Source: Streptomyces sp. NBC_01190 (GTDB taxonomy: Bacteria > Actinomycetota > Actinomycetes > Streptomycetales > Streptomycetaceae). From it: a DNA stretch of 24,000 bases. The stretch's first letter is position 1, and each line of letters opens with the position of its first letter. A program made the position numbers and the translations under genes. The stretch spans positions 6,765,953-6,789,952 of the forward strand of contig NZ_CP108580.1 in assembly GCF_045039895.1 (NCBI RefSeq), read 5' to 3'. The notes beneath the pieces were generated by a model, which made no database searches, was not told where the DNA came from, and saw only the letters and a list, made by a program, of their open reading frames with translations. This document shows positions 2-15,644 of this stretch, in pieces.

Positions 2-292
2 GAGGAGCGGATCATCTACCGACTCCTCGGGCTGGGCCGGACCGGGCACCTGGAACTGGTCGAGCAGCGCGAGCACGAGTGGATCGCCTCCGTCGACGGC
101 GCGGCACCGGTCATCCTCGGCGCGATGGGCATCGCGATGCTGCCTGGCGGCCCGTACGAGAAACCGGCAACCCCCCGCGTCGAACACCTCGGCCCCATCC
201 CCGCGGACCGCGTCGGCCTCGTCCGGCAGAACATCGCCGTCGTCCGCGAAGCGGCCGGCAGCAGCGTGCGGATCAGCGGGGCCCACGCATGA
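2..292 (+). CDS. C-terminal fragment of a hypothetical protein (5' end outside window)
   Basis: Frame is open from the window edge (EERIIYRLLGLGRTGHLELVEQREHEW...VRISGAHA*) with GC-rich third positions. Its TGA (290-292) overlaps the ATG (289-291) of the next gene (ATGA). The ORF-track frame 79-288 is Arg-rich and looks like the wrong frame here. Confidence 0.5.
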   Translation, partial: EERIIYRLLGLGRTGHLELVEQREHEWIASVDGAAPVILGAMGIAMLPGGPYEKPATPRVEHLGPIPADRVGLVRQNIAVVREAAGSSVRISGAHA

Positions 293-1356
293 GCCTTCTC
301 CCCGACCCCGTCCTGCTCAAGGCACCGGCACACGTGCTGCTCGCAGCGCCGATCGAGGTCGCCGAGCACACGATGGGACCCGACAGTCTCCTGCGCTACT
401 TAACGATCAAGGTGCATCACCTCATCCAGAACCGCCCCTGGGACACCATCAGCGTGGTCGGTGGCTACGACCGGTCCACCGTGATTTCCAGATTCGAGAA
501 GACCGGCAAGCTGTTCAACTGGCAGCGCCCTACGGCAAAGGCCAGCGGACGCCACCTCACGCTCCAGGCGTTCCCCGGAACGGACTACGTCCACCACTAC
601 GGCCTGATCATCTCCACCTACCTGTCCATGGTCGGCCGGGACGCAGGGCACGTCACCTTCCACGTACCCGCTCCGGATACATGCCGTAAGGTCGTGGAAC
701 TCCTCCACCTCGAACTCGACGGCGACCTTGTCGTGGTCGGCTGGGGTCTGGAGCACCTGGCTCCCGCCGGAGGGCTGTGGACACCCGGGCCGGGCTACGC
801 CTATCAGCGAGCCACCGTCCACGGCCGCCGGGTGGTCTACCTCGGGTTCCAGCACAGCATCTGGGGCGATGTCGCCGGACGGGTCGTCGCCCGGCTCGCC
901 GCGCTCGGCGCTGGCGATGTCGTTTACGTCGGCAAGGTCGGCGCCCTGATCCCCGGTATCGAGCCCAACACCGCACTGGCCACGGGCAACCGCAGCCTGG
1001 TCAGCGGTGTGCTCGTCACGTGGAAGGACTTCTTCGCAGGGTTCGCCGCCGCCCAGCCCGGTGTGCACACCGGCGTCCACGTCACCTCGCCGTCGATCCT
1101 GCTGGAAAACCGGGACTGGCTCGCCCGACACGCCCCGTACGCCTTCGTCGATCCGGAGATAGGCCCCATGGGGGCAGCCGCGCGCGAGGCGGCCATCGGT
1201 TTCGGCTACCTCCACGTCATTTCCAACAACCTCGCCCGTCACTACCCCGCGGATCTGTCCAACGAGCGACACCACGAGGTCATCCAGCGCCGCACCGCCC
1301 TCGTGCACCGGATACGCGCGATCATCGCAGACCGCCTGGCCACCGGCCCCCGCTGA
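289..1356 (+). CDS. Two-domain protein with a C-terminal nucleoside phosphorylase/nucleosidase (PNP_UDP superfamily)-like domain
   Basis: ATG at 289 is coupled to the upstream stop. The C-terminal half shows the phosphorylase-superfamily pattern: VVYLGFQHSIWGD, GAGDVVYVGKVGAL, VHVTSPS and FVDPEIGPMGAAAREAAIGFGYLHVISNN (counterpart of the xxMExxA...ISD block). The N-terminal ~180 aa are not recognised. Confidence 0.6.
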   Translation: MSLLPDPVLLKAPAHVLLAAPIEVAEHTMGPDSLLRYLTIKVHHLIQNRPWDTISVVGGYDRSTVISRFEKTGKLFNWQRPTAKASGRHLTLQAFPGTDYVHHYGLIISTYLSMVGRDAGHVTFHVPAPDTCRKVVELLHLELDGDLVVVGWGLEHLAPAGGLWTPGPGYAYQRATVHGRRVVYLGFQHSIWGDVAGRVVARLAALGAGDVVYVGKVGALIPGIEPNTALATGNRSLVSGVLVTWKDFFAGFAAAQPGVHTGVHVTSPSILLENRDWLARHAPYAFVDPEIGPMGAAAREAAIGFGYLHVISNNLARHYPADLSNERHHEVIQRRTALVHRIRAIIADRLATGPR

Positions 1357-1376
1357 ACACGAGAAAGAAACTGACC

Positions 1377-2066
1377 ATGACGCCGCCACCACCCGAAACC
1401 GCCCACGGCCGGGTCATCACCCTCACCGGCATCGATGGCGCGGGCAAATCGACCCTCGCCTCGCGCCTTCACCAGGCCCTCGCCGACGCTGGCCACCCAG
1501 TCCTCCTGATCGGCAAGAACAACACCACTGTGCCCATGGACACCGAACTGTCCGCCTACCTCGACCGCCTCAACGCACTGGTCTACCGCCGCGATCCCCG
1601 CGTCGCTCAAGCCTGCGGCGACCACTACTGGCTGCTGGCGCTGGCCGCCTGGTACACCCTCCAGGACACCGTCGTGATCCAGCCGGCCCTCGCCGCCGGC
1701 ACCCACGTCATCCTGGACAACGCCCACCACAAGATCCTCGCCCGCTACGCCGTCACCCCCGGCGTCTCCACCCCCCTGGCCGAACAGGTCTTCGCACACC
1801 TCAGCGAACCCGACCTGGTGATCTTTCTGCGGATCGGCGCCCGTGAAGCCCTGGCCCGCAAAGGCGCGTTCACCTCTCTGGAGACCGGGCACTCCGGCGC
1901 CCGCAGGGAGGACTTCGTCCGCTACCAGGACGCGGTCCTGGGCCACCTCCGCGAGCAGGAGCGGCCCGGCGGCTGGCTGTCCATCGACGTCACCGGTATG
2001 GACCGCGATGCCGTCTTCGAAGCGGCGGCAGGCGCGCTCGCCGACCGTCTCCACATCACCATCTGA
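1377..2066 (+). CDS. P-loop kinase, thymidylate kinase (dTMP kinase)-like
   Basis: ATG at 1377 lies 20 nt after the upstream stop. The Walker A ITLTGIDGAGKST is typical of Tmk/deoxynucleoside kinase families. The expected DR(Y/H) motif is replaced by VILDNAHHK, so it is probably not a housekeeping tmk. The ORF-track start at 777 is an Arg-rich over-extension. Confidence 0.65.
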   Translation: MTPPPPETAHGRVITLTGIDGAGKSTLASRLHQALADAGHPVLLIGKNNTTVPMDTELSAYLDRLNALVYRRDPRVAQACGDHYWLLALAAWYTLQDTVVIQPALAAGTHVILDNAHHKILARYAVTPGVSTPLAEQVFAHLSEPDLVIFLRIGAREALARKGAFTSLETGHSGARREDFVRYQDAVLGHLREQERPGGWLSIDVTGMDRDAVFEAAAGALADRLHITI

Positions 2067-2096
2067 CCGACCCCAACCCCACGCGAGGAACACATC

Positions 2097-3014
2097 ATGC
2101 CGGTGACCTGGTCGCAAGGAAGCACCTACGTGTGCCACGGCATCACCTGGGCGACCGGAAACCCCCGTCTCCTGCTCGCCCCGCTCCCCGGCGGGGCGCT
2201 GATCTACGCCGAGATCATGAAGCAGCGACTCGGCTTCCAAGCTGGGGCCGGCCGGTGGTGCACCGGCCGGTACGGCTTCGCCAGCGCCATCCAGGTCGAA
2301 GCCGTCGCCTGCCCCGACCGCGCGCCCGCCAAGCACGGTGGCCAGTGCGCCCGGTGCGCCGCCCAGGACGAGTTCCGCTTCGCCCACCAGTACCACCAAG
2401 GCGGCCATGCTCCGGAAGCAGTCGTCCGGTATATGGCTCAGCCGCACTGGTTGTACCTGGCCACCTTCGCCGACGGTGGCACCAAGGTCGGCACCGCAGC
2501 CGAACCCCGCAAGCAATCCCGACTCGACGAACAAGGCCCGGTGTTCGCCACCTACCTGGCCAGGGCCTCCGACGGCCGCACCGTCCGCTACGCAGAAGAC
2601 GCCCTCACCCAGCGCCTCCACCTGCCCCAGACCGTACGGGCCCAGGCCAAGCTCCGCGCCCTGGCTGATGTCAGCGACTTGTCCGAAGCCGGCGTGGCCC
2701 ACGATGACGCTGTGGACCGCGCCGTTGACGCCCTGGCCGATATGGGTATCCCCCCGGCACCGGAGAAGTGGGCGCCGCCAGCCGAAGGCGACCTGCTCCG
2801 GGCCTTCGGCACGCAGTGCGTGCTTTACCCGCACGACCCGCGTGCGGGCGAGCACGGCTTCACCCCTCTGTCCTGCGTGGGCTCCAACACGCTCGCCGTA
2901 CTGGAGGACACCGAGATGAGTTATCTCCTCGACCTCGGAGCGCTCAAAGGCTGCCGCATCACCTTCGGCGACTTCACCTCCCCAAGGGCAGTCATCCAGT
3001 CATCCCTGTTCTGA
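2097..3014 (+). CDS. Hypothetical protein, DUF2797-like (Cys cluster plus HWLYLATF..GGTKVGT core)
   Basis: ATG at 2097 follows GAGG (2085-2088). Codon bias is good. There is a Cys cluster (C..HGGQCARC) followed by a WLYLATFADGGTKVGTA block, which resembles the DUF2797/T5orf172-type core as I remember it. The family assignment is from memory only. Confidence 0.5.
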   Translation: MPVTWSQGSTYVCHGITWATGNPRLLLAPLPGGALIYAEIMKQRLGFQAGAGRWCTGRYGFASAIQVEAVACPDRAPAKHGGQCARCAAQDEFRFAHQYHQGGHAPEAVVRYMAQPHWLYLATFADGGTKVGTAAEPRKQSRLDEQGPVFATYLARASDGRTVRYAEDALTQRLHLPQTVRAQAKLRALADVSDLSEAGVAHDDAVDRAVDALADMGIPPAPEKWAPPAEGDLLRAFGTQCVLYPHDPRAGEHGFTPLSCVGSNTLAVLEDTEMSYLLDLGALKGCRITFGDFTSPRAVIQSSLF

Positions 3015-3068
3015 CCAGCCGCCCGGATCAGTCGGCCGGGCCCTTCCCCGTGAGTGAGGCATTCCGCG

Positions 3069-3908
3069 ATGACACCACCCGACGCCATCCTCGGCTGGGA
3101 CGAGGACACCACGGCCGAGGCGTACGCCGCCTTCACCCGCAACTTCCCGATGTACCGCTCCACCAGCCGCGATCTCGTATGCCGCGCCCACGTGACCGAC
3201 AGCCGACTTGTCATCGACCTGTGCGGCGGCGCCGGCGCCACTGCCCAAGCGGTCCTCGACGTCGCGCCTGCCCGAACCCGCGTCGTGTCACTGGATTCCG
3301 CAGCCGCCATGCAGCGCGTCGGCCGCCGAACGCTGACAGACTCCCGCCTGAGCTGGATCACCGCTCCTGCCGAACAACTCGCCGACCACGTCCACGAGTC
3401 GGCCGACGCCGTGGTGTGCAACTCGGCGATCTGGAAGACCGATGTTCCCGCCGTTTTCACTGCCGTCCGTCGCGTGCTTCGCCCCAGCGGCCGGTTCGTC
3501 TTCAACATCGGCGGCGGCTTCGCCGGGATCACCCACCCCGACGAGGCGATCACCCACACGAAGCCATCGCTGAACAGCCTGATCCAGCAGATCGCCGCCC
3601 GTGACTTCGGCTACGTCCCGCCCCCCGTCACCGGCTCACCCCCCAAGCTGCCTTTACACAAGGTCACCGAGCATCTGGCCACTGCCGGGATGACCGTCGT
3701 GGAAACCGAGGTCACCGCCCAGCACAGCACGATCGCGGAGAAGAAGGCGTGGCTGTCCATTCCGGTCTTCTCCCGGCCCGACGGAACCCTGACCTTCAAA
3801 CAGCGCATGCAGATCCTCGAGGCGGCGTACGCCCTGATCGATCCCGGCGCACCAACCGTGACGAGCTGGCTCGTCGTCGTAGCGCAACGACCAGGGCGCC
3901 GGCCATGA
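3069..3908 (+). CDS. Class I SAM-dependent methyltransferase
   Basis: Motif I is VIDLCGGAGATAQAVLD, post-I is VVSLDSAAAM, and a VVCNSAIW motif IV-like block is present. ATG at 3069 is preceded by GAGTGAGG (3052-3059). The ORF-track GTG at 3054 is an alternative start. Confidence 0.75.
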   Translation: MTPPDAILGWDEDTTAEAYAAFTRNFPMYRSTSRDLVCRAHVTDSRLVIDLCGGAGATAQAVLDVAPARTRVVSLDSAAAMQRVGRRTLTDSRLSWITAPAEQLADHVHESADAVVCNSAIWKTDVPAVFTAVRRVLRPSGRFVFNIGGGFAGITHPDEAITHTKPSLNSLIQQIAARDFGYVPPPVTGSPPKLPLHKVTEHLATAGMTVVETEVTAQHSTIAEKKAWLSIPVFSRPDGTLTFKQRMQILEAAYALIDPGAPTVTSWLVVVAQRPGRRP

Positions 3909-4444
3909 CTTCCCCTACAGCCGACCTGGACCCAGCGAGCTGCGACCACACCAGCGTCGGGGTGCTCATCTCCGCCCCGGATGGCCTGCTCTTCTTCGAA
4001 CGGGCTACGCCACCAGTCGGATTGGCGCCGGTTGCAGGCCATATCGACCACCACGGCAGCCCGGAGCAAGCCGCCCGCGCTGAGGCGGCCGAAGAGGTCG
4101 GCCTGTCCCTCACCCACCTGCGCCTGCTCCTCACCGGGTGGCGGGCGAACCGGTGCCGCCGTCCCGCCACCGCTGCCGTCGGCCACCAGTGGTGGATCTA
4201 CGAGGCACAGGCGTTCGGCTCCCTCAGCCCGTCCGACCGAGAGGTACGCGCTCCCCGATGGATAGACCCCTACAAGCTCCACCAGCTCGCTCTGCGCACC
4301 GAGGCCTATGCCCAAGGCGGCCTCAGCGATGTCGAGTTCACTAGGCGGCCAGGTATGGCTCCCGTGTGGGTGCGGTTCCTGCACGAACTGAAAATCGTGA
4401 CCCTGGCCGAAGAGGTCCTCGCCGGGATCGACACCATCATCTGA
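3905..4444 (+). CDS. Nudix-fold protein with a degenerate Nudix box
   Basis: ATG at 3905 overlaps the methyltransferase TGA (ATGA, 3905-3908). The Nudix-like segment is GHIDHHGSPEQAARAEAAEEVGL. The EExGL end is kept, but the spacing to the first Gly is non-canonical and RE is replaced by AE. Confidence 0.6.
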   Translation: MTSPTADLDPASCDHTSVGVLISAPDGLLFFERATPPVGLAPVAGHIDHHGSPEQAARAEAAEEVGLSLTHLRLLLTGWRANRCRRPATAAVGHQWWIYEAQAFGSLSPSDREVRAPRWIDPYKLHQLALRTEAYAQGGLSDVEFTRRPGMAPVWVRFLHELKIVTLAEEVLAGIDTII

Positions 4445-4464
4445 CCGGAACCGGGGGAGCAGCC

Positions 4465-4965
4465 TCAACGTGTCGCGGCCACGGGTCTGGACGCGAGTCG
4501 GCGAGCGTACGCGCGAATCCGGGTCCGGTCCTCGGGGAAGACGCTCTCCCACTCCTCATCGAGTGCGACCCACACCGCCGGCTGGCCGCTCTCACCGCTC
4601 AACGGCATGTCACGACCGACGACCGCCACGTAGGACAAGCCCAAGGTGGGCGACCAATCGGAACGGTAGGAGCGGACCGCAGCGGCCCCGGGTTCGGCCA
4701 GCAACTGCGTCCGCAGGCCCGTTTCCTCCTCCAGCTCGCGGGCCGCAGCCGTGCGCGGTGTCTCCCCGGCTTCGACCTTGCCACCGGGCGGCACCCACCC
4801 GCGTACCCGGTGCCTGACTAGCACAACGTGCCTCAAGGCGAGATCGAATACCCAGACTTCGGCGGCGAGGGGATCCATCGGTGCCTGGCGAGCAAGCTCC
4901 AGCCAGGCCCTCGCGTCGTCGAACTCCAGCGCTGCGCACCCCACGTCAGCGGCCACCGCGTCCAT
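4465..4965 (-). CDS. Nudix hydrolase (canonical Nudix box)
   Basis: The box GGKVEAGETPRTAAARELEEETGL fits GX5EX7REUXEEXGU exactly. Start chosen is the ATG at 4965 (MDAVAADV...); a GTG at 4995 is an alternative. The longer ORF-track start at 5184 adds an Arg/Gly-rich extension. It converges on the plus-strand Nudix-like gene with a 20-nt gap. Confidence 0.8.
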   Translation of the reverse strand: MDAVAADVGCAALEFDDARAWLELARQAPMDPLAAEVWVFDLALRHVVLVRHRVRGWVPPGGKVEAGETPRTAAARELEEETGLRTQLLAEPGAAAVRSYRSDWSPTLGLSYVAVVGRDMPLSGESGQPAVWVALDEEWESVFPEDRTRIRAYARRLASRPVAATR

Positions 4966-5167
4966 GAGCACCTGTTCAGTTGCTGCGTACTTCACTCGAC
5001 CGACCCTATGCCGACGCGATCCGAGAGCAGCGCAGGCTCCCCAACGGCACGCTGCACGCCCATCAGGGCCCCGCATGACGGCTGGTGGGCGGCGCCAGCC
5101 CGGCACAGGCGAGAACCCAACGACATACGCGGCGCCACCATGGCGCCCGCTTTCCGAAGGAGCGCCA

Positions 5168-6382
5168 GTGGTCACTGACCTCAACCCCGCCCGCGCCTGG
5201 GTTGTTCTGGGCGGGATTCACCTGCTCAATGGAACCGCGCCGCGTGGCCCGGTCGAACCGATTGTGCTGATTCAGGTGCCCCCGCAGGAGGTATGCGTGC
5301 CAAGCACCACGGTCGTTGTGCCGTGGGCACGTCTCGGCAGTTGCCACGTCACGGCCCTGAAAACCAATGGCGATGAGATCACCACCGGCACGATCCACGG
5401 CAGCACTCTGTTTCCCGACGCCATCGCCGGACACCCGCTTCGCACTCTCGTCGGCGAGGCGGCAGCTCCAGGACTCGTCCCCTTGTGCTACCTCGCCGCA
5501 GATCCTGGCGGCGGCTATCACGTCTATGCGCAGATCCAGTTCCACGCCGAGGACGCCTGCTTCGTCCGCACGACCCGCGAGCCGGTCGGCGCGGGCGCAC
5601 CTCCTGAGGCGCTGCGCTGGCTCGAATCCGCCCTGGCCGCTCACGCCGCGGCAGCACTACGGCTGAACAACCATCAGCGATACTTCCGCACCCACTTCGC
5701 TGGCACCGAACTGGAATACAAGTACAACCTGACGCCCCAAGCGGATATCTGGGCGGTGTCCCACGCTCTACTGCGAGCCTTGACCCACGGCGATGTGCCC
5801 GGCTGCCGACCGGAATACCGGCAGGAGTTCCACAACGCGTACTTCGACAACCACATGTTCGAGGTCACCGGACCCGAGGCAGAGCGTGGCTACGCCTCCC
5901 TCATCCCCACCGCGAACGGTGGACACGTCCTCAAGCGCAAGTGGTTCGACAAGGACGCCCTTGCTCGTCGCGAGCAGATCCACCACCCCGCCATCACGGT
6001 CCAGCCCAACGGCTTCGCGGAGTACCTGCGCTCGGACTTGGGGCTCCAAGTCCGAGCGATGCCCCCCTTCCACAGAGTCCGTTACGACGTGCAGTGCGAA
6101 TCCATGGCCACCGGACACATCTACAGCATCATCTTCGACCGCTGCTCCCTGCTGGCAGCACCCGAAGTGGTCCTGTCCCAATGCGAGATGGAGTACCGGC
6201 GCTCGCGCAGCGTCGTCGAGCGCCCCGAGAGCGAAGTCCTCGACGAGATGGACCGCCTACACCGCTGGCTCCTGTCCTACCTATCAGCGCTCGGTCTCAC
6301 AACCGAAGCCACCTTCTACTCAAAGCTCAGTTTCCTGCGCGACACCCTCGCCGAGCGACCGGACCTGACCCCGCTCCCCTGA
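5168..6382 (+). CDS. CYTH-like (triphosphate tunnel metalloenzyme) domain protein with an unrecognised N-terminal domain
   Basis: GTG at 5168 lies 5 nt after GAAGGAG (5156-5162). The C-terminal ~235 aa carry the CYTH pattern: ExExK (TELEYKYNL), YFDNH, basic strands (VLKRKW, ARREQ, HRVRYD) and a terminal acidic ExE (QCEMEYRR). The ORF-track start at 4751 runs antisense through the Nudix gene and is rejected. Confidence 0.6.
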   Translation: MVTDLNPARAWVVLGGIHLLNGTAPRGPVEPIVLIQVPPQEVCVPSTTVVVPWARLGSCHVTALKTNGDEITTGTIHGSTLFPDAIAGHPLRTLVGEAAAPGLVPLCYLAADPGGGYHVYAQIQFHAEDACFVRTTREPVGAGAPPEALRWLESALAAHAAAALRLNNHQRYFRTHFAGTELEYKYNLTPQADIWAVSHALLRALTHGDVPGCRPEYRQEFHNAYFDNHMFEVTGPEAERGYASLIPTANGGHVLKRKWFDKDALARREQIHHPAITVQPNGFAEYLRSDLGLQVRAMPPFHRVRYDVQCESMATGHIYSIIFDRCSLLAAPEVVLSQCEMEYRRSRSVVERPESEVLDEMDRLHRWLLSYLSALGLTTEATFYSKLSFLRDTLAERPDLTPLP

Positions 6383-6413
6383 GCACCCCGCTTCGTTGTG
6401 AAGACCTCGCTGA

Positions 6414-7574
6414 CTATGCGTTAACAGGCAACGCGACCAGACCACGCACCAGGCGGGTTCGGCGCCATTCCAGTTGGTCGGCCGGGACGGCGAGCCTGAG
6501 CCGGGGGAAACGGGTCAGAATCGCCCGCAGAGCGATGTCAGCTTCCGCTCTGGCGAGCGGGGCACCGACGCAGCGGTGGATGCCGTGGCCGAAGGCGAGG
6601 TGGCCGGTGGCCTCACGGTTGAGGTCGAGCTGGTCTGGGGCCGGGAACCGCTGCGGGTCTCGGTTGGCGGCGCCGAGGGTGATCAGCACGGGAACATTGG
6701 CCGGGATCTCGGTGCCGCCGAGTGTGATGGCTTCGGTGGTGTATCGGAAAGTGGCCGTGCTGACGGGCGAGTCGAAGCGCAGCAGTTCCTCCAAGGCGGC
6801 CGGGATGCTCTCCGGTTTGCTGCGCAGGCGCTCCTGTTCGGTGGGGTGCTGGAGGAGTGCCAAGGCGGCGTTGCCGAGGAAGTTGGTGGTGGTCTCGTGT
6901 CCGGCGACCAGCAGCAGCACCGCCAGAGAGACCAGCTCCTCCTCACTGAGGCGGTCTTCCCCGTCGCGAGCCGCGATGAGGCCGTCGAGGAGTGAGCCGC
7001 CGGGCCGCGAGCGCTTGGCCGCGATAAGCCCGGTCATGTACTCGGCCATGGAGTGCGAGGCTTCGTCGATGAGGTCGGGCTTGCCGGCGGCGAACAACTG
7101 GGCGGACCAGCGCTGGACGTCGGGCCGGTCGGTTTCCGGCACGCCGAGCAGTTCGCAGATCACGATGACCGGCAGCGGTACGGCCAGGCTGGCGACGAGG
7201 TCGATCTGTTCGCCGAGGGGCCACTGATCGAGCAGGCGGTCGGTCGTTTGCGCGATGAACGGGCGCAGTTCAGCGACAGCGCCAGTGGTGAATGCCTTGG
7301 TCACCAGCTTGCGGAGCCTGGTGTGGTGGGGCGGATCGGTGGCCAGCATGTTGTGTGCGACTGCCGGGTGCAGCCGCCGCCGTGAGCCCTTGTCGGCGAA
7401 GAAGGCGGCGGTGTCTTTCGAGAGCCGGGGATCGGCGAGGGCCTGCCGGGCCTCGGCGTAGCCGAGGACCAGGTAGTTGATGTGCCCGCCCGAGCCGGTG
7501 GGGACGGCCTGCACCGGGCACGCGGAGCGCATGGCCGCGTAGGTGGCGTACGGGTCTTGAGTGGGGTCGGTCAT
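6414..7574 (-). CDS. Cytochrome P450
   Basis: Heme-binding loop FGHGIHRCVGAPLA, ExxR (EELLRF) and I-helix LLLVAGHETT are all present. ATG at 7574 lies 4 nt downstream of the preceding gene's stop, which indicates the same operon. The ORF-track start at 7589 is a TTG. Confidence 0.9.
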   Translation of the reverse strand: MTDPTQDPYATYAAMRSACPVQAVPTGSGGHINYLVLGYAEARQALADPRLSKDTAAFFADKGSRRRLHPAVAHNMLATDPPHHTRLRKLVTKAFTTGAVAELRPFIAQTTDRLLDQWPLGEQIDLVASLAVPLPVIVICELLGVPETDRPDVQRWSAQLFAAGKPDLIDEASHSMAEYMTGLIAAKRSRPGGSLLDGLIAARDGEDRLSEEELVSLAVLLLVAGHETTTNFLGNAALALLQHPTEQERLRSKPESIPAALEELLRFDSPVSTATFRYTTEAITLGGTEIPANVPVLITLGAANRDPQRFPAPDQLDLNREATGHLAFGHGIHRCVGAPLARAEADIALRAILTRFPRLRLAVPADQLEWRRTRLVRGLVALPVNA

Positions 7575-7578
7575 GTGG

Positions 7579-8763
7579 TCAGGCTCCAACTGGTTCGGGC
7601 TGCTCGCCGCCGGCGACGCGCGCAGTACGTTGCGAATAGGCGCTGGCCACCTGGAGGAGCCACTGGGTCTCTTCGCGGAGGTCTTTGCGTGACGGGGCTT
7701 CCGCCGGCGGCAGGGCGACTTCCTCGGCGAGGAGACCGGCCTTCATTGCCGCAAGTGCCGCCTTTACGACGGCAGCCTCGATGGTCGCGGCCTGGTCCTC
7801 CGTTACGGCGTCGGTAGTCCGCTGGGCCGTCTCCAGGTCCTTGCGGGAGCGGTAGGGGCGAAGGGCGAGGATGCCGTCGCTGATCTCGATGACCCGGCGC
7901 TGGAGCAGGAAGTCCGCGTCGGTGGATGCGTTGGCGTTGACGTCTTCGGCCGGGAGAACGATCTCCGGCATGGCGGCCGACAGGTCCTGCCAGAGCGGAC
8001 CGAGTGCTTCGAAGGACCGCACCTCCCAGCGTCGGCGGTGGGCCTGACTGACCGGGTAGACCACGGCCGGCAGGGTGAGGCCGACGCAGATCAGGAGAAC
8101 CGCGAGCGCGGGGGACGTCACGCTGAAGACGCAGGGCGAGGACGTCAAGGTCGAGCAGTGCTGGTGATCAGGGATCAGGTGGAATCCCAGGCCCAAGGAG
8201 ACGAGAACCGTCACCTTGTACGCCGCGTAGACGAGCGCGAACAAGCAGCCGGCGGCTGCGAGGCGGAGGCCAAGCCGGACGCTGCTCCGGCGAGTCGACT
8301 TGGACTGCCGCAGAGCCTGCTGCAGGAAGTCGATGATGGCGAAGCCGAGGTAGGTGATGAACACGAGCAGGTAGAGCGCGTACACCTGCGGCGATCGGTG
8401 CGTCATCTGCTCGTAGGCGAAGAGCACCGTCATGCCGAAGACGGAGGCAGCCAGGAGAAGGAGGCGCAGCCGTATGCGGCGTCGTGCTTCCGCGGATTCC
8501 AGGTTGAGCTGGAAGGAGACGGCCACGACGGAGGCGGCGGCGGCCAGGGAGGCGGAGTTGCTCAGCAACCGGGCCACGTCTGGTACGACTGCCTCGACGG
8601 CGTTCTCGACCAGCGGCGCGTAGGAGGCGAAGGCCACCGCGAAGGAGGCGAGCAGGCTTCCCATGGCCCAGGTTCCCGCGGGGCGCGGGGTGCCCCGCCC
8701 GAGGATCCAGTAGCCGGCGGCCACTGCCAGGAGACAGGCCATGCCAAGAAAGAGGGCATTCAT
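7579..8763 (-). CDS. Polytopic membrane protein, MAB_1171c family/DUF6545-like
   Basis: About 6 hydrophobic helices are followed by a soluble C-terminal domain (WEVRSFEALGPLWQDL...LRPY). ATG at 8763 overlaps the ImmA-like stop (ATGA, 8760-8763). This matches the membrane partner usually found after actinobacterial ImmA-like 'toxin' genes (from memory). Confidence 0.7.
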   Translation of the reverse strand: MNALFLGMACLLAVAAGYWILGRGTPRPAGTWAMGSLLASFAVAFASYAPLVENAVEAVVPDVARLLSNSASLAAAASVVAVSFQLNLESAEARRRIRLRLLLLAASVFGMTVLFAYEQMTHRSPQVYALYLLVFITYLGFAIIDFLQQALRQSKSTRRSSVRLGLRLAAAGCLFALVYAAYKVTVLVSLGLGFHLIPDHQHCSTLTSSPCVFSVTSPALAVLLICVGLTLPAVVYPVSQAHRRRWEVRSFEALGPLWQDLSAAMPEIVLPAEDVNANASTDADFLLQRRVIEISDGILALRPYRSRKDLETAQRTTDAVTEDQAATIEAAVVKAALAAMKAGLLAEEVALPPAEAPSRKDLREETQWLLQVASAYSQRTARVAGGEQPEPVGA

Positions 8764-9305
8764 TGTGAGCGGAACCGGCCTTTCTTGATGGGCTGGGCGA
8801 AGAGTGCATCCCAACTGTCCGACCCCTTTTCAGGTCGGCGGGAAGGCGATATGCGTTCGCGGTACATACGCTGGCGAATGATGGTCGCCATCATCTCCGC
8901 TTCGCGTTCATCCGCGGTCGAGTAGCTCGTGCGCCCCGACATGCGCATCACCAGAGTCGGATCCACCCCGAGGGAATGCGCCGTGGAGGCGTCCACTTCC
9001 AGGCTCCCGGGGTGGTCGAGGAACACGTGCATCAGTTCGTGGGCGAGTATGTGCCGTTGATGGTGGACGGACGTCCCCTCCTCGTAGAAGAGGAGGTCGG
9101 CCTGTGGCGTCTCCAGGCGTATGCCGCAGGGGGCGTCGATTGCCCCGAGCGTGTTCAAGGGCTTCAAGAAGATGGGCTTCCCGCGAACTGCGGTTATCGC
9201 TTCACGCAGCTCCCTCGTAGTGAAGCGATACGGCAGGGACAAGCGGTCGACTTTCTGCTCACAGGATGTGCGCAGCAGATTGTCGTCGACCCAAGGCAAA
9301 GACAT
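8760..9305 (-). CDS. ImmA/IrrE-family (M78-like) zinc metallopeptidase, annotated in actinomycetes as a TA-system toxin component
   Basis: HExxH motif in HHQRHILAHELMHVFLDH. The preceding block GKPIFLKPL...LLFYEEGTS and the later YSTADEREAEMMATII are typical of this family. ATG at 9305 is preceded by GAGGGGGG. Confidence 0.8.
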   Translation of the reverse strand: MSLPWVDDNLLRTSCEQKVDRLSLPYRFTTRELREAITAVRGKPIFLKPLNTLGAIDAPCGIRLETPQADLLFYEEGTSVHHQRHILAHELMHVFLDHPGSLEVDASTAHSLGVDPTLVMRMSGRTSYSTADEREAEMMATIIRQRMYRERISPSRRPEKGSDSWDALFAQPIKKGRFRSQ

Positions 9306-9614
9306 GGTAGTTCCCCCCTCAGCCGGAGTTGTTTCAACTGCGAGCGACTGATGAGGAGAGGATGCCAAGAAGGTTGTGGATTTGGTGTTTATAGGAACTG
9401 GTACTTCCGGTTACGCACGGTGTTGCTGCGCCGGGTGTGACGCAAGAGGTGACTGTCCATCGACAACCGCCCTTTGGCTCTCTTGAGGCCGCGGCCCCCG
9501 ATATTTCGGGGGTCGGATCGCGCGCCAAGTCCCCCTCCGTGGGGCCGTCGTCCCTTATGTCTGACTACGGAGGATGACGAACGGGCGATTTTCTGACGGA
9601 AAGTCACGGCATGT

Positions 9615-9630
9615 TGTGACCCACATCACA
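9615..9630. promoter_or_regulatory. Perfect palindrome TGTGA-N6-TCACA directly upstream of the MmyB-like regulator gene
   Basis: TGTGACCCACATCACA at 9615-9630 ends 1 nt before the ATG at 9632. It matches the CRP/FNR-type consensus spacing. It could equally be an operator for one of the local HTH regulators. Confidence 0.4.
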
Positions 9631-9631
9631 G

Positions 9632-10495
9632 ATGGTCGCCCTACGATCTGTCCCTATGGACTCCCGCGAGGGGCGAGGCGATGACAGATTCCGAGGCGAG
9701 TCCCTGACTGAGCTGCTGCGCTCATGGCGCCGGCGCTTGGACCCGCGGGAGGTCCCTGGGCTGGAGTCCACCGGCAGGCGTGGCGATGGTCTGTCCCAAC
9801 GGGACGCCGCCCACTTGGGCGGGGTCAGTGAGCGGTGGTACCGAGCCCTGGAGGCCGGAAAGTCCGCCAACTACTCGGTCGAGTTCCTCGACCGCCTTGC
9901 CATGGGACTGGGGTTAAGCGGTGCCGAGCGGCACGCCCTGTACTTGAGGGCCACCGGAAGGCCGCCAACGCTCCTGGCCGCCCCAGAGCCTGATGCTGCC
10001 GCAGAGATGGATGAGCAGCTCCAGCAGTTCCTGGACACCCAACCTCCCAACCCCGCCTACGTGTCCGACGTGGCGTGGAACATCGTCGGGCGCAATCAGC
10101 CATTTCGCGCATGGTTCCCCTGGGCTGTTCGCGATGGGAATCTCATGCGTTGGATTCTCCTGGATCCGGAAGCACGTGACCGGCTCGTCAATTGGCGCGA
10201 AGACTGGGCCCGTCCGGCCTTGGGGCAAATCCGCTATGCGCTGAGTCAGTATCCCAAGAACGAAGCCCTTCGCCGCTTGGAACGCGATGTCCTTGCGGGA
10301 CCTTGGGACATGCGCGAGATGTGGGGCCGGCGAGAAGTCTACGAACACCCCGAACGCGACGTGCGCAGACTGAGGTTGCCGTACCACGCGGGTCGGGAAG
10401 TCCCGGTCCGAACCATCGATCTGGCCCCCGCGCGCAGCGCACGGCTTCGCGTGGTCGTGTTCATGGAAGGCCGAGGGGGCGCCTCCACTAAGTGA
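9632..10495 (+). CDS. MmyB-like HTH transcriptional regulator (XRE-type HTH plus MmyB-like ligand-binding domain)
   Basis: N-terminal LTELLRSWRRRLDP...GLSQRDAAHLGGVSERWYRALEAGK. The C-terminal domain has PAYVSDVAWNIVGRN, NLMRWILLDPEARD and a terminal RLRVVVF, as in MmyB-family regulators. The start could be the ATG at 9656 (leaderless, after TACGAT at 9642-9647) rather than 9632. Confidence 0.8.
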   Translation: MVALRSVPMDSREGRGDDRFRGESLTELLRSWRRRLDPREVPGLESTGRRGDGLSQRDAAHLGGVSERWYRALEAGKSANYSVEFLDRLAMGLGLSGAERHALYLRATGRPPTLLAAPEPDAAAEMDEQLQQFLDTQPPNPAYVSDVAWNIVGRNQPFRAWFPWAVRDGNLMRWILLDPEARDRLVNWREDWARPALGQIRYALSQYPKNEALRRLERDVLAGPWDMREMWGRREVYEHPERDVRRLRLPYHAGREVPVRTIDLAPARSARLRVVVFMEGRGGASTK

Positions 10496-10535
10496 AGGGC
10501 GGCGCGGGATTCCCGCCCGATGGTTCTGCGGCCGA

Positions 10536-11417: not shown

Positions 11418-11741
11418 ATGCTCACCGCCCAAGGCGGAAGTTCGGCCTGCCCGGACGCCGACCGCCCGCATCGCCTCGCCGCCCAGCTCGCCGACATGAT
11501 CCCCGGCGTGGCCACCCTGCGCGTCAGCCTCACCGGCCCGACGCAGACCTGGCCCCATCCCCACGCCGTGGCCAAGGACAGGGCGGGGCAGCCGGTGGAG
11601 CTGAGTCGGGCGACCGCGAAGATTGCGGCGCGCTGGATCCTGCGGGTCTGGCCGGAGGCCGACTGGACCCGGCCCCATATCTTCGACGTGGCCAGCGCCA
11701 CGCTTACCCGCAGCGACCTGGTCGCGGGCCGGGGCCGCTGA
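11418..11741 (+). CDS. Hypothetical small protein (first gene of the plus-strand mobile-element operon)
   Basis: ATG at 11418 is preceded by ACGGAG. Third-position GC bias is strong throughout. The stop at 11739-11741 lies 1 nt before the next gene's GTG. No family was recognised. Confidence 0.5.
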   Translation: MLTAQGGSSACPDADRPHRLAAQLADMIPGVATLRVSLTGPTQTWPHPHAVAKDRAGQPVELSRATAKIAARWILRVWPEADWTRPHIFDVASATLTRSDLVAGRGR

Positions 11742-11742
11742 C

Positions 11743-12762: not shown

Positions 12763-13466
12763 TGCGCACCAAGACCCGCGAACCGCAGACCCTCGGCGGA
12801 TCCGGAACCCTGGAGCGGATGGCCCGGATCCTGGCCGCCCGGAACATCGACCCCGCAGCCGCCGCCGTGGCGGACGAGCCGGAGCCGTACTCGCCGCTGG
12901 ACGCGCTACGGGCCTCGATGCCGCCGCGCTACCGGGACGCGGTGGCCGACCACCCGCAGGTCCTGGCCTGGTGCCGGGAGGTCGCCGCGCAGGCGGTCGC
13001 GCCGGGCGTCGGTGCCCGTCGGCAGGTGTGCACCGGCCCCAGCCTGCTGATGGCGGGGGTGGTCGGCGCGGGCAAGACGCACCAGGCGTACGGCGCGGTC
13101 CGCGCGTTGGTCGGGGCGGGGGTCGGGGTGCGGTGGCGGGCGACGACGGCGGCCGACCTGTACGCCGAACTGCGGCCGAGGGCCGGGGTGGACAGCGAGC
13201 GGGAGCTGGCGGCGGTGGCCCGGGTGCCGCTGCTGATCCTGGACGACCTCGGCGCGGCGAAGGCGTCGGAGTGGACCGAGGAGATCACGTACCGGCTGGT
13301 CAACCGCCGGTACAACCACGAGCTTCCGACCCTGATCACCAGCAACCTGCGGATCGGGGACCTGCGGGCCTATGTCGGTGACCGCGTCGCCAGCAGGCTC
13401 ACTCAGATGACCACGCGGGTCGAGTTCGACCTGGTCGACCGTAGACGCACCCGCGCTGCCGCCTGA
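12762..13466 (+). CDS. DnaC/IstB-like AAA+ ATPase (helicase-loader type)
   Basis: Walker A GVVGAGKTH, Walker B LLILDDLG and sensor LITSN are present. ATG at 12762 overlaps the upstream TGA. Confidence 0.8.
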   Translation: MRTKTREPQTLGGSGTLERMARILAARNIDPAAAAVADEPEPYSPLDALRASMPPRYRDAVADHPQVLAWCREVAAQAVAPGVGARRQVCTGPSLLMAGVVGAGKTHQAYGAVRALVGAGVGVRWRATTAADLYAELRPRAGVDSERELAAVARVPLLILDDLGAAKASEWTEEITYRLVNRRYNHELPTLITSNLRIGDLRAYVGDRVASRLTQMTTRVEFDLVDRRRTRAAA

Positions 13467-13582
13467 CCTGCGGTCAGACGGTCCGGCGGGCCCGCCCCCA
13501 GCGCGCCGCCCGCACGAACTTCCCGACCAGGCACCTCCGCCGGCGCCGACTGCGCGCGGAGGGCGATCGGAGCACACCGCGC

Positions 13583-15306: not shown

Positions 15307-15352
15307 GAAGTGCCACCTTCCGACTTCCTCCCACCGACTGGAGAGCACGACC

Positions 15353-15577: not shown

Positions 15578-15644
15578 CCGCCGACGACCCGGTGGCCGCC
15601 ACCCCTGACCAGCAGCGACAGGTCAACTCGGCTCCTGGCGGGTC

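What the first reader, a model, noticed from the sequence alone, without database searches (positions are those of the whole stretch)
289..6382. Coupled cassette of atypical nucleotide-handling enzymes: candidate nucleotide-centric conflict/signalling system or modified-nucleotide pathway
Five plus-strand genes run with ATGA overlaps or gaps of 55 nt or less: PNP/nucleosidase-like, Tmk-like P-loop kinase, DUF2797-like, SAM methyltransferase and Nudix-like. A convergent canonical Nudix gene and a divergent CYTH-like protein follow them. None looks like a housekeeping copy. The kinase lacks the Tmk DR(Y/H) motif. The PNP-like protein has an extra N-terminal domain and ISNN in place of ISD. One Nudix box is degenerate. 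The CYTH domain carries an unknown N-terminal domain. Together these activities could phosphorylate, methylate, deglycosylate, pyrophosphohydrolyse and act on a triphosphate. That combination fits making or destroying a non-standard nucleotide. PNP-like, Nudix and CYTH/cyclase-type domains recur in published nucleotide-based immune and signalling systems, but I know of no named system with this gene set.
Basis: partly seen in the sequence, partly recalled or inferred. Interest (0 to 1): 0.7.

Follow-up and report, generated by a model that had tools for sequence, protein, structure and literature searches.

The report
Uncharacterised 7-deazaguanine nucleotide gene cluster
The "odd nucleotide enzymes" are the downstream two-thirds of a conserved actinomycete gene cluster that makes the modified base 7-carboxy-7-deazaguanine and attaches it to a sugar with a phage-type transglycosylase; nobody has described this cluster or its product.

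Summary
The cassette is real. The gene order, the overlaps and most domain calls hold. The window cuts the operon in two. On the same contig, directly upstream, lie QueD, QueE and FolE, which make 7-carboxy-7-deazaguanine (CDG) from GTP. They are followed by a 272-aa protein whose last 96 codons are window 2..292. That protein (G0) has a tRNA-guanine-transglycosylase fold. It keeps the two catalytic aspartates. Its nearest relatives are phage DpdA3/DpdA4-like "DNA guanine transglycosylases".

The order QueD-QueE-FolE-G0-PNP-like-kinase-DUF2797-methyltransferase-(Nudix)-Nudix(reverse)-(CYTH-like) recurs in 85 loci from at least 16 actinomycete genera and on three Streptomyces plasmids. No QueC or phosphoribosyltransferase was found, and no PADLOC defence system matched.

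The defence/signalling reading is not.

My best reading is a nucleotide-level CDG pathway: a base swap by G0, followed by phosphorylation, pyrophosphohydrolysis, methylation and triphosphate clearance. The final product could be modified DNA or a cadeguomycin-like nucleoside, and this is unresolved. The cluster type is not described in the papers I could search. I rate it a new variant of a known kind, interest about 0.68.

The parts
2..292 (+). 3' end (last 96 codons) of G0, a 272-aa compact DpdA3/DpdA4-like member of the tRNA-guanine transglycosylase superfamily. The window part holds the LLGLG motif and the putative nucleophile Asp208 (window 95-97).
   Evidence: The full gene is on the source contig, L004 7378-8196. 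The AlphaFold2 model has pLDDT 89.9. The top roughly 35 solved matches are almost all TGT. The best viral match is a Cellulophaga phage phiST protein, TM 0.77-0.81. tblastn hits a phage 'DNA guanine transglycosylase DpdA'. G0 D58 aligns with E. coli TGT D89, and G0 D208 with TGT D264.
289..1356 (+). G1, 355 aa: an unknown N-terminal domain of about 120 aa plus a divergent PNP/UDP-type nucleoside phosphorylase fold. It has an invariant ISNN where MTAN/PNP have the N7-protonating Asp.
   Evidence: Pfam PNP_UDP_1 scores 18.6 bits, below the cut-off. A family profile hits uridine phosphorylase structures at E 0.005. Homologues carry PF01048 and 'nucleoside phosphorylase-I' names. N313 and N314 are invariant. 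The gene is present in 83 of 85 loci.
1377..2066 (+). G2, 229 aa: a Tmk-like P-loop kinase with GIDGAGKST and an invariant D114-N115 in place of DR(Y/H). It is not a housekeeping dTMP kinase.
   Evidence: Pfam Thymidylate_kin scores 39.9 bits. TIGR00041 scores 38 bits against a cut-off of 83. The gene is present in 83 of 85 loci.
2097..3014 (+). G3, 305 aa: a divergent DUF2797 protein with a zinc-ribbon-like cysteine set (C55, C72, C84, C87). Its function is unknown.
   Evidence: Pfam DUF2797 scores 29.7 bits. There is no relative among solved structures and no phage relative. The gene is present in 85 of 85 loci.
3069..3908 (+). G4, 279 aa: a class I SAM-dependent methyltransferase.
   Evidence: Pfam Methyltransf_25/11 scores about 42 bits. 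The weak best NCBIfam hits include the carboxyl O-methyltransferases BioC, Tam and Mtf2. The gene is present in 84 of 85 loci.
3905..4444 (+). G5, 179 aa: a Nudix-fold protein with a partly degenerate box. The metal-binding glutamates are kept, but the first box Glu and the Arg are lost. It is an accessory gene.
   Evidence: Pfam NUDIX scores 43 bits. The gene is present in 68 of 85 loci and carries an in-frame stop in L047.
4465..4965 (-). G6, 166 aa: a canonical Nudix hydrolase (GGKVExGETxxxAAxRELxEETGL). It lies on the opposite strand in every locus.
   Evidence: Pfam NUDIX scores 56 bits. The box is invariant. The gene is present in 82 of 85 loci, always on the minus strand relative to the operon.
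5168..6382 (+). G7, 404 aa: a beta-rich N-terminal domain plus a C-terminal CYTH/triphosphate-tunnel fold (about residues 175-404). It has invariant E181-x-E183-x-K185 and a full set of charged tunnel residues. It is an accessory gene.
   Evidence: The AlphaFold2 model has pLDDT 95.4. The top Foldseek matches are thiamine triphosphatase (E 3e-6), YgiF and Pct1. There is no Pfam hit. The gene is present in 55 of 85 loci.

Best explanation
The cassette is the nucleotide-processing half of an uncharacterised cluster of about 8.8 kb. The cluster makes a 7-deazaguanine nucleotide from 7-carboxy-7-deazaguanine (CDG). It is conserved across actinomycetes.

Shown:
- QueD, QueE and FolE lie directly upstream on the same contig and in 82-83 of 85 related loci. 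From established enzymology, these three convert GTP to CDG.
- No QueC was found, so the pathway stops at the carboxylate.
- The next gene, G0, ends at window 292. It is a compact TGT-superfamily enzyme of the phage DpdA3/DpdA4 type, with both catalytic aspartates conserved.

Inferred:
- G0 swaps guanine for CDG on a (deoxy)ribose.
- All the conserved partners are small-molecule nucleotide enzymes. I therefore think the chemistry runs on free nucleotides.
- The canonical Nudix G6, and possibly G5, converts (d)GTP or the analogue triphosphate to the monophosphate.
- The Tmk-like kinase G2 re-phosphorylates the CDG nucleotide.
- The methyltransferase G4 methylates it, possibly at the 7-carboxyl.
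- The PNP-like G1 makes or breaks the glycosidic bond of a 6-oxo-(deaza)purine nucleoside. It has Asn where N7-protonating enzymes have Asp.
- The CYTH-like G7 hydrolyses a triphosphate. The simplest candidate is the inorganic triphosphate that the QueD reaction releases.
- The role of G3 (DUF2797, zinc ribbon) is unknown.

The final sink is unresolved. My rough odds within this reading are:
- a free or secreted cadeguomycin-type nucleoside, 0.3;
- entry into DNA through the dNTP pool, as may happen in DpdA3 phages, 0.2;
- an intracellular toxic or signalling nucleotide, 0.1.

Confidence that this is a CDG-type 7-deazaguanine cluster with a DpdA-like enzyme is about 0.9. Confidence in the nucleotide-level mechanism as a whole is about 0.55.
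For: Synteny and distribution:
- The cluster is syntenic on three Streptomyces plasmids, each annotated with QueD, QueE and FolE upstream.
- The window's own contig shows QueD, QueE, FolE and G0 immediately upstream.
- tblastn over 85 loci from at least 16 genera found QueD in 83, QueE in 82, FolE in 82, G0 in 84, G1 in 83, G2 in 83, G3 in 85, G4 in 84, G6 in 82, G5 in 68 and G7 in 55. The neighbouring P450 and DUF6545 genes are not conserved.

G0 as a DpdA-like enzyme:
- Its model has a TGT fold.
- The best viral fold match is a protein of phage phiST, TM about 0.8.
- Sequence matches to annotated phage DpdA hold in both directions.
- Its catalytic aspartates align with E. coli TGT D89 and D264.

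What is absent:
- tblastn with phage QueC, phosphoribosyltransferase and QueF queries found nothing in any locus.

Parallels in phages:
- In phages, compact DpdA genes sit beside small P-loop kinase-like genes and NTP (pyro)phosphohydrolases.
- In CP220 the order is an HD+kinase fusion, then DpdA3, then an AAA_28 kinase.
- In phage immuto the module holds a phosphoribosyltransferase, a MazG-like enzyme, DpdA and an AAA_28 kinase.
- In Youna2 a P-loop ORF overlaps the start of the DpdA-like gene.
- Per PMC10516641, DpdA3 phages stop at CDG, replace 100% of G, and could not be reconstituted on DNA in E. coli.

G7:
- G7 has a CYTH fold with invariant tunnel residues.

From established knowledge rather than tools:
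- QueD (EC 4.1.2.50) releases inorganic triphosphate.
- YgiF and NeuTTM are triphosphatases.
- PNP and MTAN use an Asp to protonate N7, which a 7-deazapurine lacks.
- Trimeric 6-oxopurine PNPs use an Asn at that position.
Against: - Every TGT/DpdA enzyme characterised so far acts on a polynucleotide (tRNA or DNA). None is known to act on a free nucleotide.
- The phage kinases are not orthologous to G2. Only the P-loop aligns. Kinases and NTP pyrophosphatases are common in large phages, so the parallel could be coincidence.
- The small P-loop partner could instead be an ATPase helper for DNA insertion, as DpdB is for bacterial DpdA (named in PMC10164549, abstract listed).
- No substrate was tested for any enzyme.
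- The PNP call for G1 is weak at the sequence level.
- The core gene set contains no transporter, which argues against a secreted product. An ABC exporter is adjacent only in one Streptomyces clade and in L005.
Confidence: 0.55

Rival explanations
1. This is a classical post-replicative DNA modification module. G0 behaves like other DpdA enzymes and swaps CDG for guanine directly in DNA of the host, plasmid or integrative element. G2 is its ATPase helper, a functional analogue of DpdB. G4 methylates the base on DNA, and the zinc ribbon of G3 binds DNA. The Nudix, PNP-like and CYTH genes do base or nucleotide housekeeping. The purpose would be protection from restriction, or self-marking.
For: - G0 belongs to the DpdA branch of the TGT superfamily.
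- Its phage relatives sit in DNA-modification modules next to DNA polymerase genes.
- The cluster is on three plasmids, and in the window it lies beside a relaxase/MobC element.
- An HhH-GPD glycosylase-like gene is adjacent in 9 loci.
- Bacterial DpdA needs the ATPase DpdB (PMC10164549, abstract listed).
Against: - Five of the eight cassette genes (PNP-like, two Nudix, CYTH, Tmk-like kinase) have no obvious job on DNA, yet they are conserved across at least 16 genera.
- No DpdB, DpdC or restriction (dpdD-K type) genes are conserved nearby.
- No relative of G0 was found in IMG/VR viral contigs.
- DpdA3-type enzymes have never been shown to work on DNA in vitro or in E. coli (PMC10516641).
Confidence: 0.22
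2. This is the first reader's main idea: an anti-phage or inter-element conflict or signalling system. The cluster would make a toxic or signalling 7-deazaguanine nucleotide on demand. The CYTH domain could act as a cyclase. The separately transcribed Nudix G6 would protect the cell or reset the signal.
For: - The cluster lies on plasmids and next to a mobile element.
- G6 and G7 have their own transcription units in every locus.
- Extra Nudix genes lie downstream in about 30 loci.
- From my own knowledge, kinases accompany radical-SAM antiviral nucleotide producers such as prokaryotic viperins.
Against: - PADLOC matches no system. There are only generic hits to a P-loop, a methyltransferase domain and a Nudix box.
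- No sensor, effector or abortive-infection gene is conserved with the cluster.
- The regulators differ by lineage: LuxR-like, GntR or TPR.
- In one large Streptomyces clade the cluster sits at a fixed chromosomal site among ordinary genes.
- G7, the supposed cyclase, is missing from 30 of 85 loci.
Confidence: 0.1
3. These are ordinary salvage or housekeeping genes that merely sit together, or a known 7-deazapurine antibiotic cluster (tubercidin or toyocamycin type).
For: - Nudix, kinase and phosphorylase folds are common in salvage.
- Tubercidin clusters also lack QueC and contain a Nudix hydrolase (PMC6112128, listed; preprint text).
Against: - Order and orientation are conserved in 85 loci across distant genera and on plasmids.
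- All proteins score far below the equivalog cut-offs for housekeeping enzymes.
- tblastn with a phage phosphoribosyltransferase found nothing.
- None of the gene families that recur beside the cluster looked like a UbiD decarboxylase, GMP reductase or adenylosuccinate enzyme. These enzymes, with a phosphoribosyltransferase, define the tub and toy clusters.
Confidence: 0.03

Closest known systems
Phage DpdA3-type 7-deazaguanine DNA-modification modules (Cellulophaga phage phiST, Campylobacter phage CP220, Flavobacterium phage immuto; PMC10516641)
   Same: - FolE, QueD and QueE occur without a route to preQ0 in phiST and CP220, so CDG is the branch point.
- The transglycosylase is compact, about 260-270 aa, and lacks the zinc subdomain.
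- The G0 model superposes on the phiST protein at TM about 0.8.
- Sequence matches hold in both directions.
- Small P-loop kinase-like genes and NTP (pyro)phosphohydrolases lie next to the transglycosylase.
   Different: - This cluster is cellular (actinomycete chromosomes and plasmids), not viral. No relative was found in IMG/VR.
- It has no DpdL, QueC-like, QueF or formyltransferase gene.
- It adds a PNP-like protein, DUF2797, a SAM methyltransferase, Nudix enzymes and a CYTH-like protein, none of which has phage homologues.
- Its kinases and hydrolases are not orthologous to the phage ones.
- Its product is unknown.
Tubercidin (tub) biosynthetic gene cluster of Streptomyces tubercidicus (PMC6112128)
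   Same: - It is a Streptomyces cluster.
- It is CDG-based and has no QueC.
- It contains a Nudix hydrolase (TubG).
- It makes a 7-deazapurine nucleoside through nucleotide intermediates.
   Different: - tub attaches CDG to PRPP with the phosphoribosyltransferase TubE, then uses a UbiD-type decarboxylase and a GMP-reductase-like enzyme. None of these was found here.
- tub has no TGT-like, PNP-like, Tmk-like, DUF2797 or CYTH gene.
Bacterial Dpd restriction-modification islands (dpdA-K; Salmonella Montevideo, Kineococcus)
   Same: - A TGT-family enzyme is linked to 7-deazaguanine synthesis genes.
- The islands are found on genomic islands.
   Different: - Dpd uses preQ0 and so needs QueC. It also uses the ParB/DndB-like ATPase DpdB, DpdC, and a helicase/nuclease restriction operon. 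None of these is present here.
- G0 is not recognised by TGT or other curated models.
Cadeguomycin (7-carboxy-7-deazaguanosine), an orphan Streptomyces nucleoside
   Same: - It is the riboside of CDG, exactly the base this cluster stops at.
- A 2025 review lists it among nucleosides with no identified gene cluster.
   Different: - No link was tested.
- Producer strains were not examined.
- The methyltransferase and kinase suggest a more elaborate product than cadeguomycin itself.

Membership tests
CDG-type 7-deazapurine pathway | FolE, QueD and QueE are encoded together with the tailoring genes | tested here: met
   On the window's own contig, QueD is at L004 5524-5931, QueE at 5931-6677 and FolE at 6731-7378, directly upstream. 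They are present in 82-83 of 85 loci and are annotated on three plasmids.
CDG-type 7-deazapurine pathway | QueC is absent, so the pathway stops at the carboxylate rather than at preQ0 | tested here: met
   tblastn with a phage QueC found no hit at E<=0.01 in any of the 85 loci, each spanning 20 kb. None is annotated on the plasmids. A QueC elsewhere in the genomes was not tested.
DpdA / tRNA-guanine transglycosylase superfamily (G0) | TGT-type TIM-barrel fold | tested here: met
   The AlphaFold2 model has pLDDT 89.9. The top roughly 35 solved matches are almost all TGT, with E 4e-7 to 1e-5 and TM 0.58-0.64. The phage phiST protein matches at TM 0.77-0.81.
DpdA / tRNA-guanine transglycosylase superfamily (G0) | Catalytic aspartates (E. 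coli TGT D89 and the nucleophile D264) | tested here: met
   In a MAFFT alignment with E. coli TGT and phage DpdA-like proteins, G0 D58 aligns with D89 and G0 D208 with D264. LLGLG aligns with LMGVG. All are invariant in the family.
DpdA / tRNA-guanine transglycosylase superfamily (G0) | Zinc-binding subdomain (C302, C304, C307, H333 in E. coli TGT) | tested here: not met
   The CDCYTC segment of TGT falls in a region absent from G0 and from the phage DpdA3-like proteins. This is shared with the compact phage subfamily, so it argues against classical TGT or bacterial DpdA but not against DpdA3-like.
DpdA / tRNA-guanine transglycosylase superfamily (G0) | Base-exchange activity on DNA or RNA | not testable with these tools
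   This needs biochemistry. DpdA3 itself has not been reconstituted (PMC10516641).
PNP/UDP nucleoside phosphorylase family (G1) | Pfam PF01048 at the gathering score | tested here: inconclusive
   The score is 18.6 bits against a cut-off of 25.1. A family profile hits uridine phosphorylase structures at E 0.005. About 40% of homologues carry a precomputed PF01048 hit.
PNP/UDP nucleoside phosphorylase family (G1) | Catalytic Asp of the hexameric PNP/MTAN type (the ISD motif) | tested here: not met
   The motif is an invariant ISNN (N313, N314) across 23 homologues.
Thymidylate kinase (G2) | Equivalog score and the DR(Y/H) motif | tested here: not met
   The Pfam family cut-off is met (39.9 bits). 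TIGR00041 scores 38 bits against a cut-off of 83. D114-N115 is invariant in place of DR. G2 is a Tmk-like fold, not a dTMP kinase.
Nudix hydrolase (G6, G5) | Nudix box GX5EX7REUXEEXGU | tested here: met
   In G6 the box is canonical and invariant. In G5 the first Glu and the Arg are lost, but E60, E63 and E64 are kept.
CYTH / triphosphate tunnel metalloenzyme (G7) | Pfam CYTH profile match | tested here: not met
   There is no Pfam hit for G7 or for ten distant relatives.
CYTH / triphosphate tunnel metalloenzyme (G7) | Tunnel fold, with ExExK and charged residues lining the strands | tested here: met
   The model has pLDDT 95.4. The top matches are thiamine triphosphatase (E 3e-6), YgiF and Pct1, with target TM 0.44-0.51. 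E181, E183, K185, K258, R267, E269, R303, E311, D324, E340, E342 and R347 are invariant over 50 sequences of 23-64% identity.
Known anti-phage defence systems (PADLOC-DB 2.0) | Match of the component proteins to the models of one system | tested here: not met
   There are only generic partial hits (a P-loop to VakA/PDC-M51B, a methyltransferase domain to mad2, a Nudix box to PDC-S07). G0, G1, G3, G5 and G7 have none.
Tubercidin/toyocamycin-type clusters | A phosphoribosyltransferase plus purine-nucleotide conversion enzymes | tested here: not met
   tblastn with a phage phosphoribosyltransferase found no hit. None of the recurrent flank families looked like a UbiD, GMP reductase or adenylosuccinate enzyme. 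The phosphoribosyltransferase query was distant, so this test is weak.

The most novel reading that the evidence does not exclude
Compact DpdA3-like transglycosylases, both here and in the phages that replace 100% of their guanine, act on free (deoxy)guanine nucleotides rather than on DNA. This actinomycete cluster would then be a cellular, pre-replicative 7-deazaguanine nucleotide factory: a Nudix enzyme supplies the monophosphate, G0 swaps the base, and a dedicated kinase re-activates the product. It would be the first nucleotide-level enzyme in the TGT superfamily. It could also be the missing route to cadeguomycin-type nucleosides.
Probability: 0.2. Interest if true: 0.85.

Novelty: new variant of a known kind. 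Interest (0 to 1): 0.68.

Why it matters
Known 7-deazapurine pathways fall into two camps. One modifies nucleic acid and is marked by a TGT or DpdA enzyme. The other makes antibiotics and starts with a phosphoribosyltransferase. This cluster combines the marker of the first camp with a full set of small-molecule nucleotide enzymes. It is common, occurring in at least 116 species in the genome scan.

Standard models do not recognise G0. Genome-mining rules that use DpdA hits to separate "DNA modification" from "natural product" clusters may therefore misfile this whole family.

Working out the substrate of G0 would bear on two open questions. One is how DpdA3 phages reach complete guanine replacement. 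The other is where CDG nucleosides such as cadeguomycin come from. It would also give a function to a DUF2797 protein and to a new CYTH-like family.

Tried and rejected
- PADLOC scan of all eight proteins: no system.
- Sequence-profile searches of solved structures for G0, G3 and G7: nothing meaningful.
- Pfam at E<=10 for G0 and G7: nothing.
- Pfam on ten distant G7 relatives: no CYTH.
I judge this uninformative, because a single-sequence profile is insensitive.
- Idea that G3 (DUF2797) is GIY-YIG/T5orf172-like, from its WLY...KVGT...R...Q motif: no Pfam support in 21 members at E<=10. I dropped it to an untested idea.
- Phage homologues of G1 and G3: none. G2 gave only a generic kinase hit.
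- Orthology between G2 and the phage kinases next to DpdA3: rejected, because only the P-loop aligns.
- IMG/VR scan for G0: none.
- Riboswitch or other RNA elements upstream or within the cluster: none. The only Rfam hit is a group II intron elsewhere in the window.
- P450 and DUF6545 as cluster members: rejected, present in 6 and 1 of 85 loci.
- Upstream conservon-like, GAF and acyl-CoA dehydrogenase genes: shared only by one Streptomyces clade, so they are neighbours and not members.
- Promoter and terminator scan of 4300-6600: uninformative.
- The MMBR 2024 review of 7-deazaguanines is not held in the library.

Full report
**Observation**

The window is about 68% G+C, so raw ORF lists are noisy. 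Third-position GC (GC3) frame analysis and translation give clean gene models.
- A partial ORF ends at 292.
- G1 is 289..1356.
- G2 is 1377..2066.
- G3 is 2097..3014.
- G4 is 3069..3908.
- G5 is 3905..4444.
- G6 is 4465..4965, on the minus strand.
- G7 is 5168..6382.

Pfam confirms Thymidylate_kin, DUF2797, class I methyltransferase and two NUDIX domains above their cut-offs. PNP_UDP_1 falls below its cut-off, and nothing is found for G7. NCBIfam scores are far below every equivalog cut-off, so none of these is a housekeeping copy. The motif remarks hold across homologues:
- DN in place of DR(Y/H) in the kinase;
- ISNN in G1;
- a partly degenerate box in G5, with the metal-binding glutamates kept;
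- a canonical box in G6.

**What the window hides**

A nucleotide search of plasmids found the cassette at 75-77% identity on three Streptomyces plasmids. [quoted passage not shown]

An exact-protein look-up recovered the window's own contig (L004; window position 1 is L004 position 7905). It shows the same four genes immediately upstream. The fourth, G0, is the ORF whose last 96 codons are window 2..292. The source is Streptomyces sp. NBC_01190.

**Conservation**

A scan of one genome per species found 116 species that encode a G3 relative, and 80 loci were fetched. tblastn of all cluster proteins against these 80 loci, the three plasmids, L004 and L005 gives the counts below.

| Gene | Loci with a hit (of 85) |
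|---|---|
| QueD | 83 |
| QueE | 82 |
| FolE | 82 |
| G0 | 84 |
| G1 | 83 |
| G2 | 83 |
| G3 | 85 |
| G4 | 84 |
| G6 | 82 |
| G5 | 68 |
| G7 | 55 |

Order and orientation are the same throughout, and G6 is always on the opposite strand. The loci come from at least 16 genera: Streptomyces, Kitasatospora, Amycolatopsis, Prauserella, Actinokineospora, Lentzea, Saccharothrix, Microbispora, Nonomuraea, Actinomadura and others.

The P450 and DUF6545 genes to the right of the cassette are not conserved (6 and 1 loci). Flanking genes and regulators differ by lineage: LuxR-like, GntR or TPR proteins. tblastn with phage QueC, phosphoribosyltransferase and QueF queries finds nothing in any locus. So the core is nine genes, with G5 and G7 as accessories, and the pathway stops at CDG.

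**Identity of G0**

G0 has no Pfam, NCBIfam or solved-structure sequence match. It has only a weak hit to a PHROG of unknown function. Its AlphaFold2 model (pLDDT 89.9, pTM 0.89) is a TIM barrel.

Among solved structures, the first roughly 35 matches are almost all tRNA-guanine transglycosylases, with E from 4e-7 to 1e-5. Among predicted viral structures, the second-best match is a 259-aa protein of Cellulophaga phage phiST (E 2e-13, TM 0.77/0.81, rmsd 3.4 Å). Cui et al. defined the DpdA3 subfamily in that phage (PMC10516641). I did not confirm that the matched phiST protein is the DpdA3 gene itself.

At the sequence level, G0 matches two phage proteins:
- the annotated "DNA guanine transglycosylase DpdA" of Flavobacterium phage immuto, over 93% of its length;
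- a protein of Weizmannia phage Youna2.

Both genes lie within the phages' queuosine-type gene modules, next to DNA polymerase. The immuto protein is 44% identical to the DpdA3 of Campylobacter phage CP220. In the reverse direction, the phage proteins hit the G0 position in 84 of 85 loci.

In an alignment that includes the real E. coli TGT sequence:
- G0 D58 aligns with TGT D89 (motif TDSGG);
- G0 LLGLG aligns with LMGVG;
- G0 D208-x3-P212 aligns with the nucleophile D264 (motif FDCVMP);
- the TGT zinc-site segment is absent from G0 and from the compact phage proteins.

I conclude that G0 is a DpdA3/DpdA4-like member of the TGT superfamily. I cannot say what it acts on.

**Identity of G7**

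phmmer against 1.8 billion representative proteins found a family of 266 clusters. Ten of its distant members, like G7 itself, have no CYTH hit in Pfam. A 50-sequence alignment of 23-64% identity shows an invariant set of charged residues: E181, E183, K185, K258, R267, E269, R303, E311, D324, E340, E342, R347 and K386.

The AlphaFold2 model built from that alignment has pLDDT 95.4. Its best solved matches are human and mouse thiamine triphosphatase (E 3e-6), E. coli YgiF and the Pct1 RNA triphosphatase. Mediator Med18/20 chains also appear among the top hits. The N-terminal 170 residues form a separate domain of unknown function.

**G1 and G3**

G1 is a divergent nucleoside-phosphorylase fold, supported by:
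- a family profile that hits uridine phosphorylase structures at E 0.005;
- precomputed PF01048 hits on many homologues;
- some homologues named "nucleoside phosphorylase-I family".

The Asn at the position of the N7-protonating Asp is notable. A 7-deazapurine has no N7, and trimeric 6-oxopurine phosphorylases use an Asn there. Both points are established knowledge, not tested here.

G3 is a divergent DUF2797 with four invariant cysteines spaced like a zinc ribbon. The literature holds no function for DUF2797. I found no phage relative and no relative among solved structures.

**Mechanism**

The following is shown: three enzymes that make CDG, a TGT-type base-exchange enzyme, and six or seven enzymes whose folds all act on nucleosides, nucleotides or triphosphates. 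All are inherited as one block.

The following is inferred. CDG is placed on a (deoxy)ribose by G0. The cassette then handles the phosphorylation state through the Nudix enzymes and the kinase, and methylation through G4. The weak best hits of G4 include the carboxyl methyltransferases BioC, Tam and Mtf2. G1 handles the glycosidic bond, and G7 handles a triphosphate. For G7 the simplest job is removing the inorganic triphosphate that the QueD reaction releases. That would also fit its accessory status.

A parallel in phages makes a nucleotide-level route plausible:
- In CP220 the DpdA3 gene is flanked by an HD-phosphohydrolase/kinase fusion and an AAA_28 kinase.
- In immuto it sits with a phosphoribosyltransferase, a MazG-like pyrophosphohydrolase and an AAA_28 kinase.
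- In Youna2 a small P-loop ORF overlaps its start.

DpdA3 phages stop at CDG, replace all their guanine, and could not be reconstituted in E. coli.

There are cautions.
- These kinases are not orthologous to G2.
- Such genes are common in phages.
- A P-loop partner could equally be an ATPase helper like DpdB.

**Where the product goes**

I could not decide this. Three things favour a free nucleoside or nucleotide:
- the small-molecule enzyme set;
- the separately transcribed Nudix G6, which looks like a self-protection gene;
- in about 30 Streptomyces loci and in L005, a downstream ABC exporter; those Streptomyces loci also carry extra Nudix genes, and some an APH-type kinase.

Three things favour DNA:
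- the family of G0;
- the plasmid and mobile-element locations;
- an HhH-GPD-like gene in nine loci.

**Comparison with what is known**

A 2025 review lists only the toyocamycin/sangivamycin and tubercidin clusters for deazapurine nucleosides, and it lists cadeguomycin, the riboside of CDG, among compounds with no identified cluster.

A 2026 preprint surveys 966 putative deazapurine clusters in 160 groups. Only five of these groups are characterised families. Its text does not mention thymidylate kinase, Nudix, DUF2797 or phosphorylase as terms, and none of the groups it describes has this gene set. That survey separates nucleic-acid systems from natural-product clusters by DpdA/TGT HMM hits. 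G0 is invisible to the Pfam and NCBIfam models, so this family may be misfiled. I could not test their own HMMs.

The cluster differs from three known systems:
- tub: no phosphoribosyltransferase, UbiD decarboxylase or GMP reductase was found here;
- bacterial dpd islands: none of their other signature genes (QueC, dpdB, dpdC, the restriction operon) was found here;
- phage DpdA3 modules: this cluster is cellular and has a different accessory set.

**Verdict**

The "modified-nucleotide pathway" reading is supported and sharpened to a CDG-type 7-deazaguanine pathway with a DpdA3-like enzyme. The defence/signalling reading is unsupported. The cluster is a new variant of a known kind, is widespread, and has not been characterised.

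Noticed in passing
window 15642-17529 (-): A group II intron. Rfam Intron_gpII domain V/VI is at 15642-15718 (67 bits). The reverse-transcriptase/maturase ORF is at 15748-17529 on the same strand.
   Followed up: partly
window 11600-21050: An integrated mobile element lies right of the cassette. It has an IstB/DnaC-like ATPase (12696-13466), a WhiB-like protein (about 13600-14149), a MobC-like protein (18110-18781) and a MobA/VirD2 relaxase (18748-20535; Pfam Relaxase E 5e-10). Whether the 7-deazaguanine cluster travels with it is unknown.
   Followed up: partly
window 21999-23999 (-), runs off the window: A large WD40-repeat protein (seven or more repeats). By eye, its N-terminal region looks like a caspase-type peptidase. 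This resembles the NLR/caspase-WD40 proteins of actinomycetes.
   Followed up: no
window 6414-10500: A P450 (6414-7574, -), DUF6545 (7579-8763, -), a small HExxH protein that looks ImmA-like (8763-9305, -) and an HTH_31/MLTR_LBD regulator (about 9656-10495, +). These are not conserved with the cluster (P450 in 6 and DUF6545 in 1 of 85 loci).
   Followed up: partly
L021 8266-9282 and L047 11876-12376: In-frame stop codons occur in the G1 homologue of Actinokineospora auranticolor and in the G5 homologue of Lentzea pudingi. These are possible pseudogenes or sequencing errors. They suggest that parts of the cluster decay in some genomes.
   Followed up: no
L033 14605-20640; L044 and L046 14500-20900: In about 30 Streptomyces loci an overlapping-gene operon follows G7. 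It holds an APH-family phosphotransferase or an HhH-GPD-like protein, a Nudix, an ABC exporter (about 660 aa), then a double-Nudix protein or an MFS transporter, and another Nudix. It looks like a resistance and export unit for a toxic nucleoside.
   Followed up: partly
L088 7862-10355 (Campylobacter phage CP220); L086 6393-7711 (Weizmannia phage Youna2): Compact phage DpdA genes are immediately flanked by small P-loop kinase-like genes. In CP220 there is also an HD-phosphohydrolase/kinase fusion. This recurring pairing is not discussed in the phage paper I read, and it may bear on how DpdA3 reaches 100% guanine replacement.
   Followed up: partly
L008, L009, L019 and other Pseudonocardiales loci, about 4200-6800: In the Pseudonocardiales version of the cluster, QueD and QueE are only 40-49% identical to the Streptomyces ones. 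The ORFs called for QueD are longer (about 230-270 aa), and up to about 1 kb of extra sequence lies between QueE and FolE. G7 is absent, and divergent GntR regulators are present.
   Followed up: no
L001 (plasmid NZ_CP107821) 16411-22919: On this 132-kb circular plasmid the cluster sits next to a phage portal protein gene and a giant DEAD/DEAH helicase gene. The replicon may be a phage-plasmid or a conjugative element with anti-restriction cargo.
   Followed up: no
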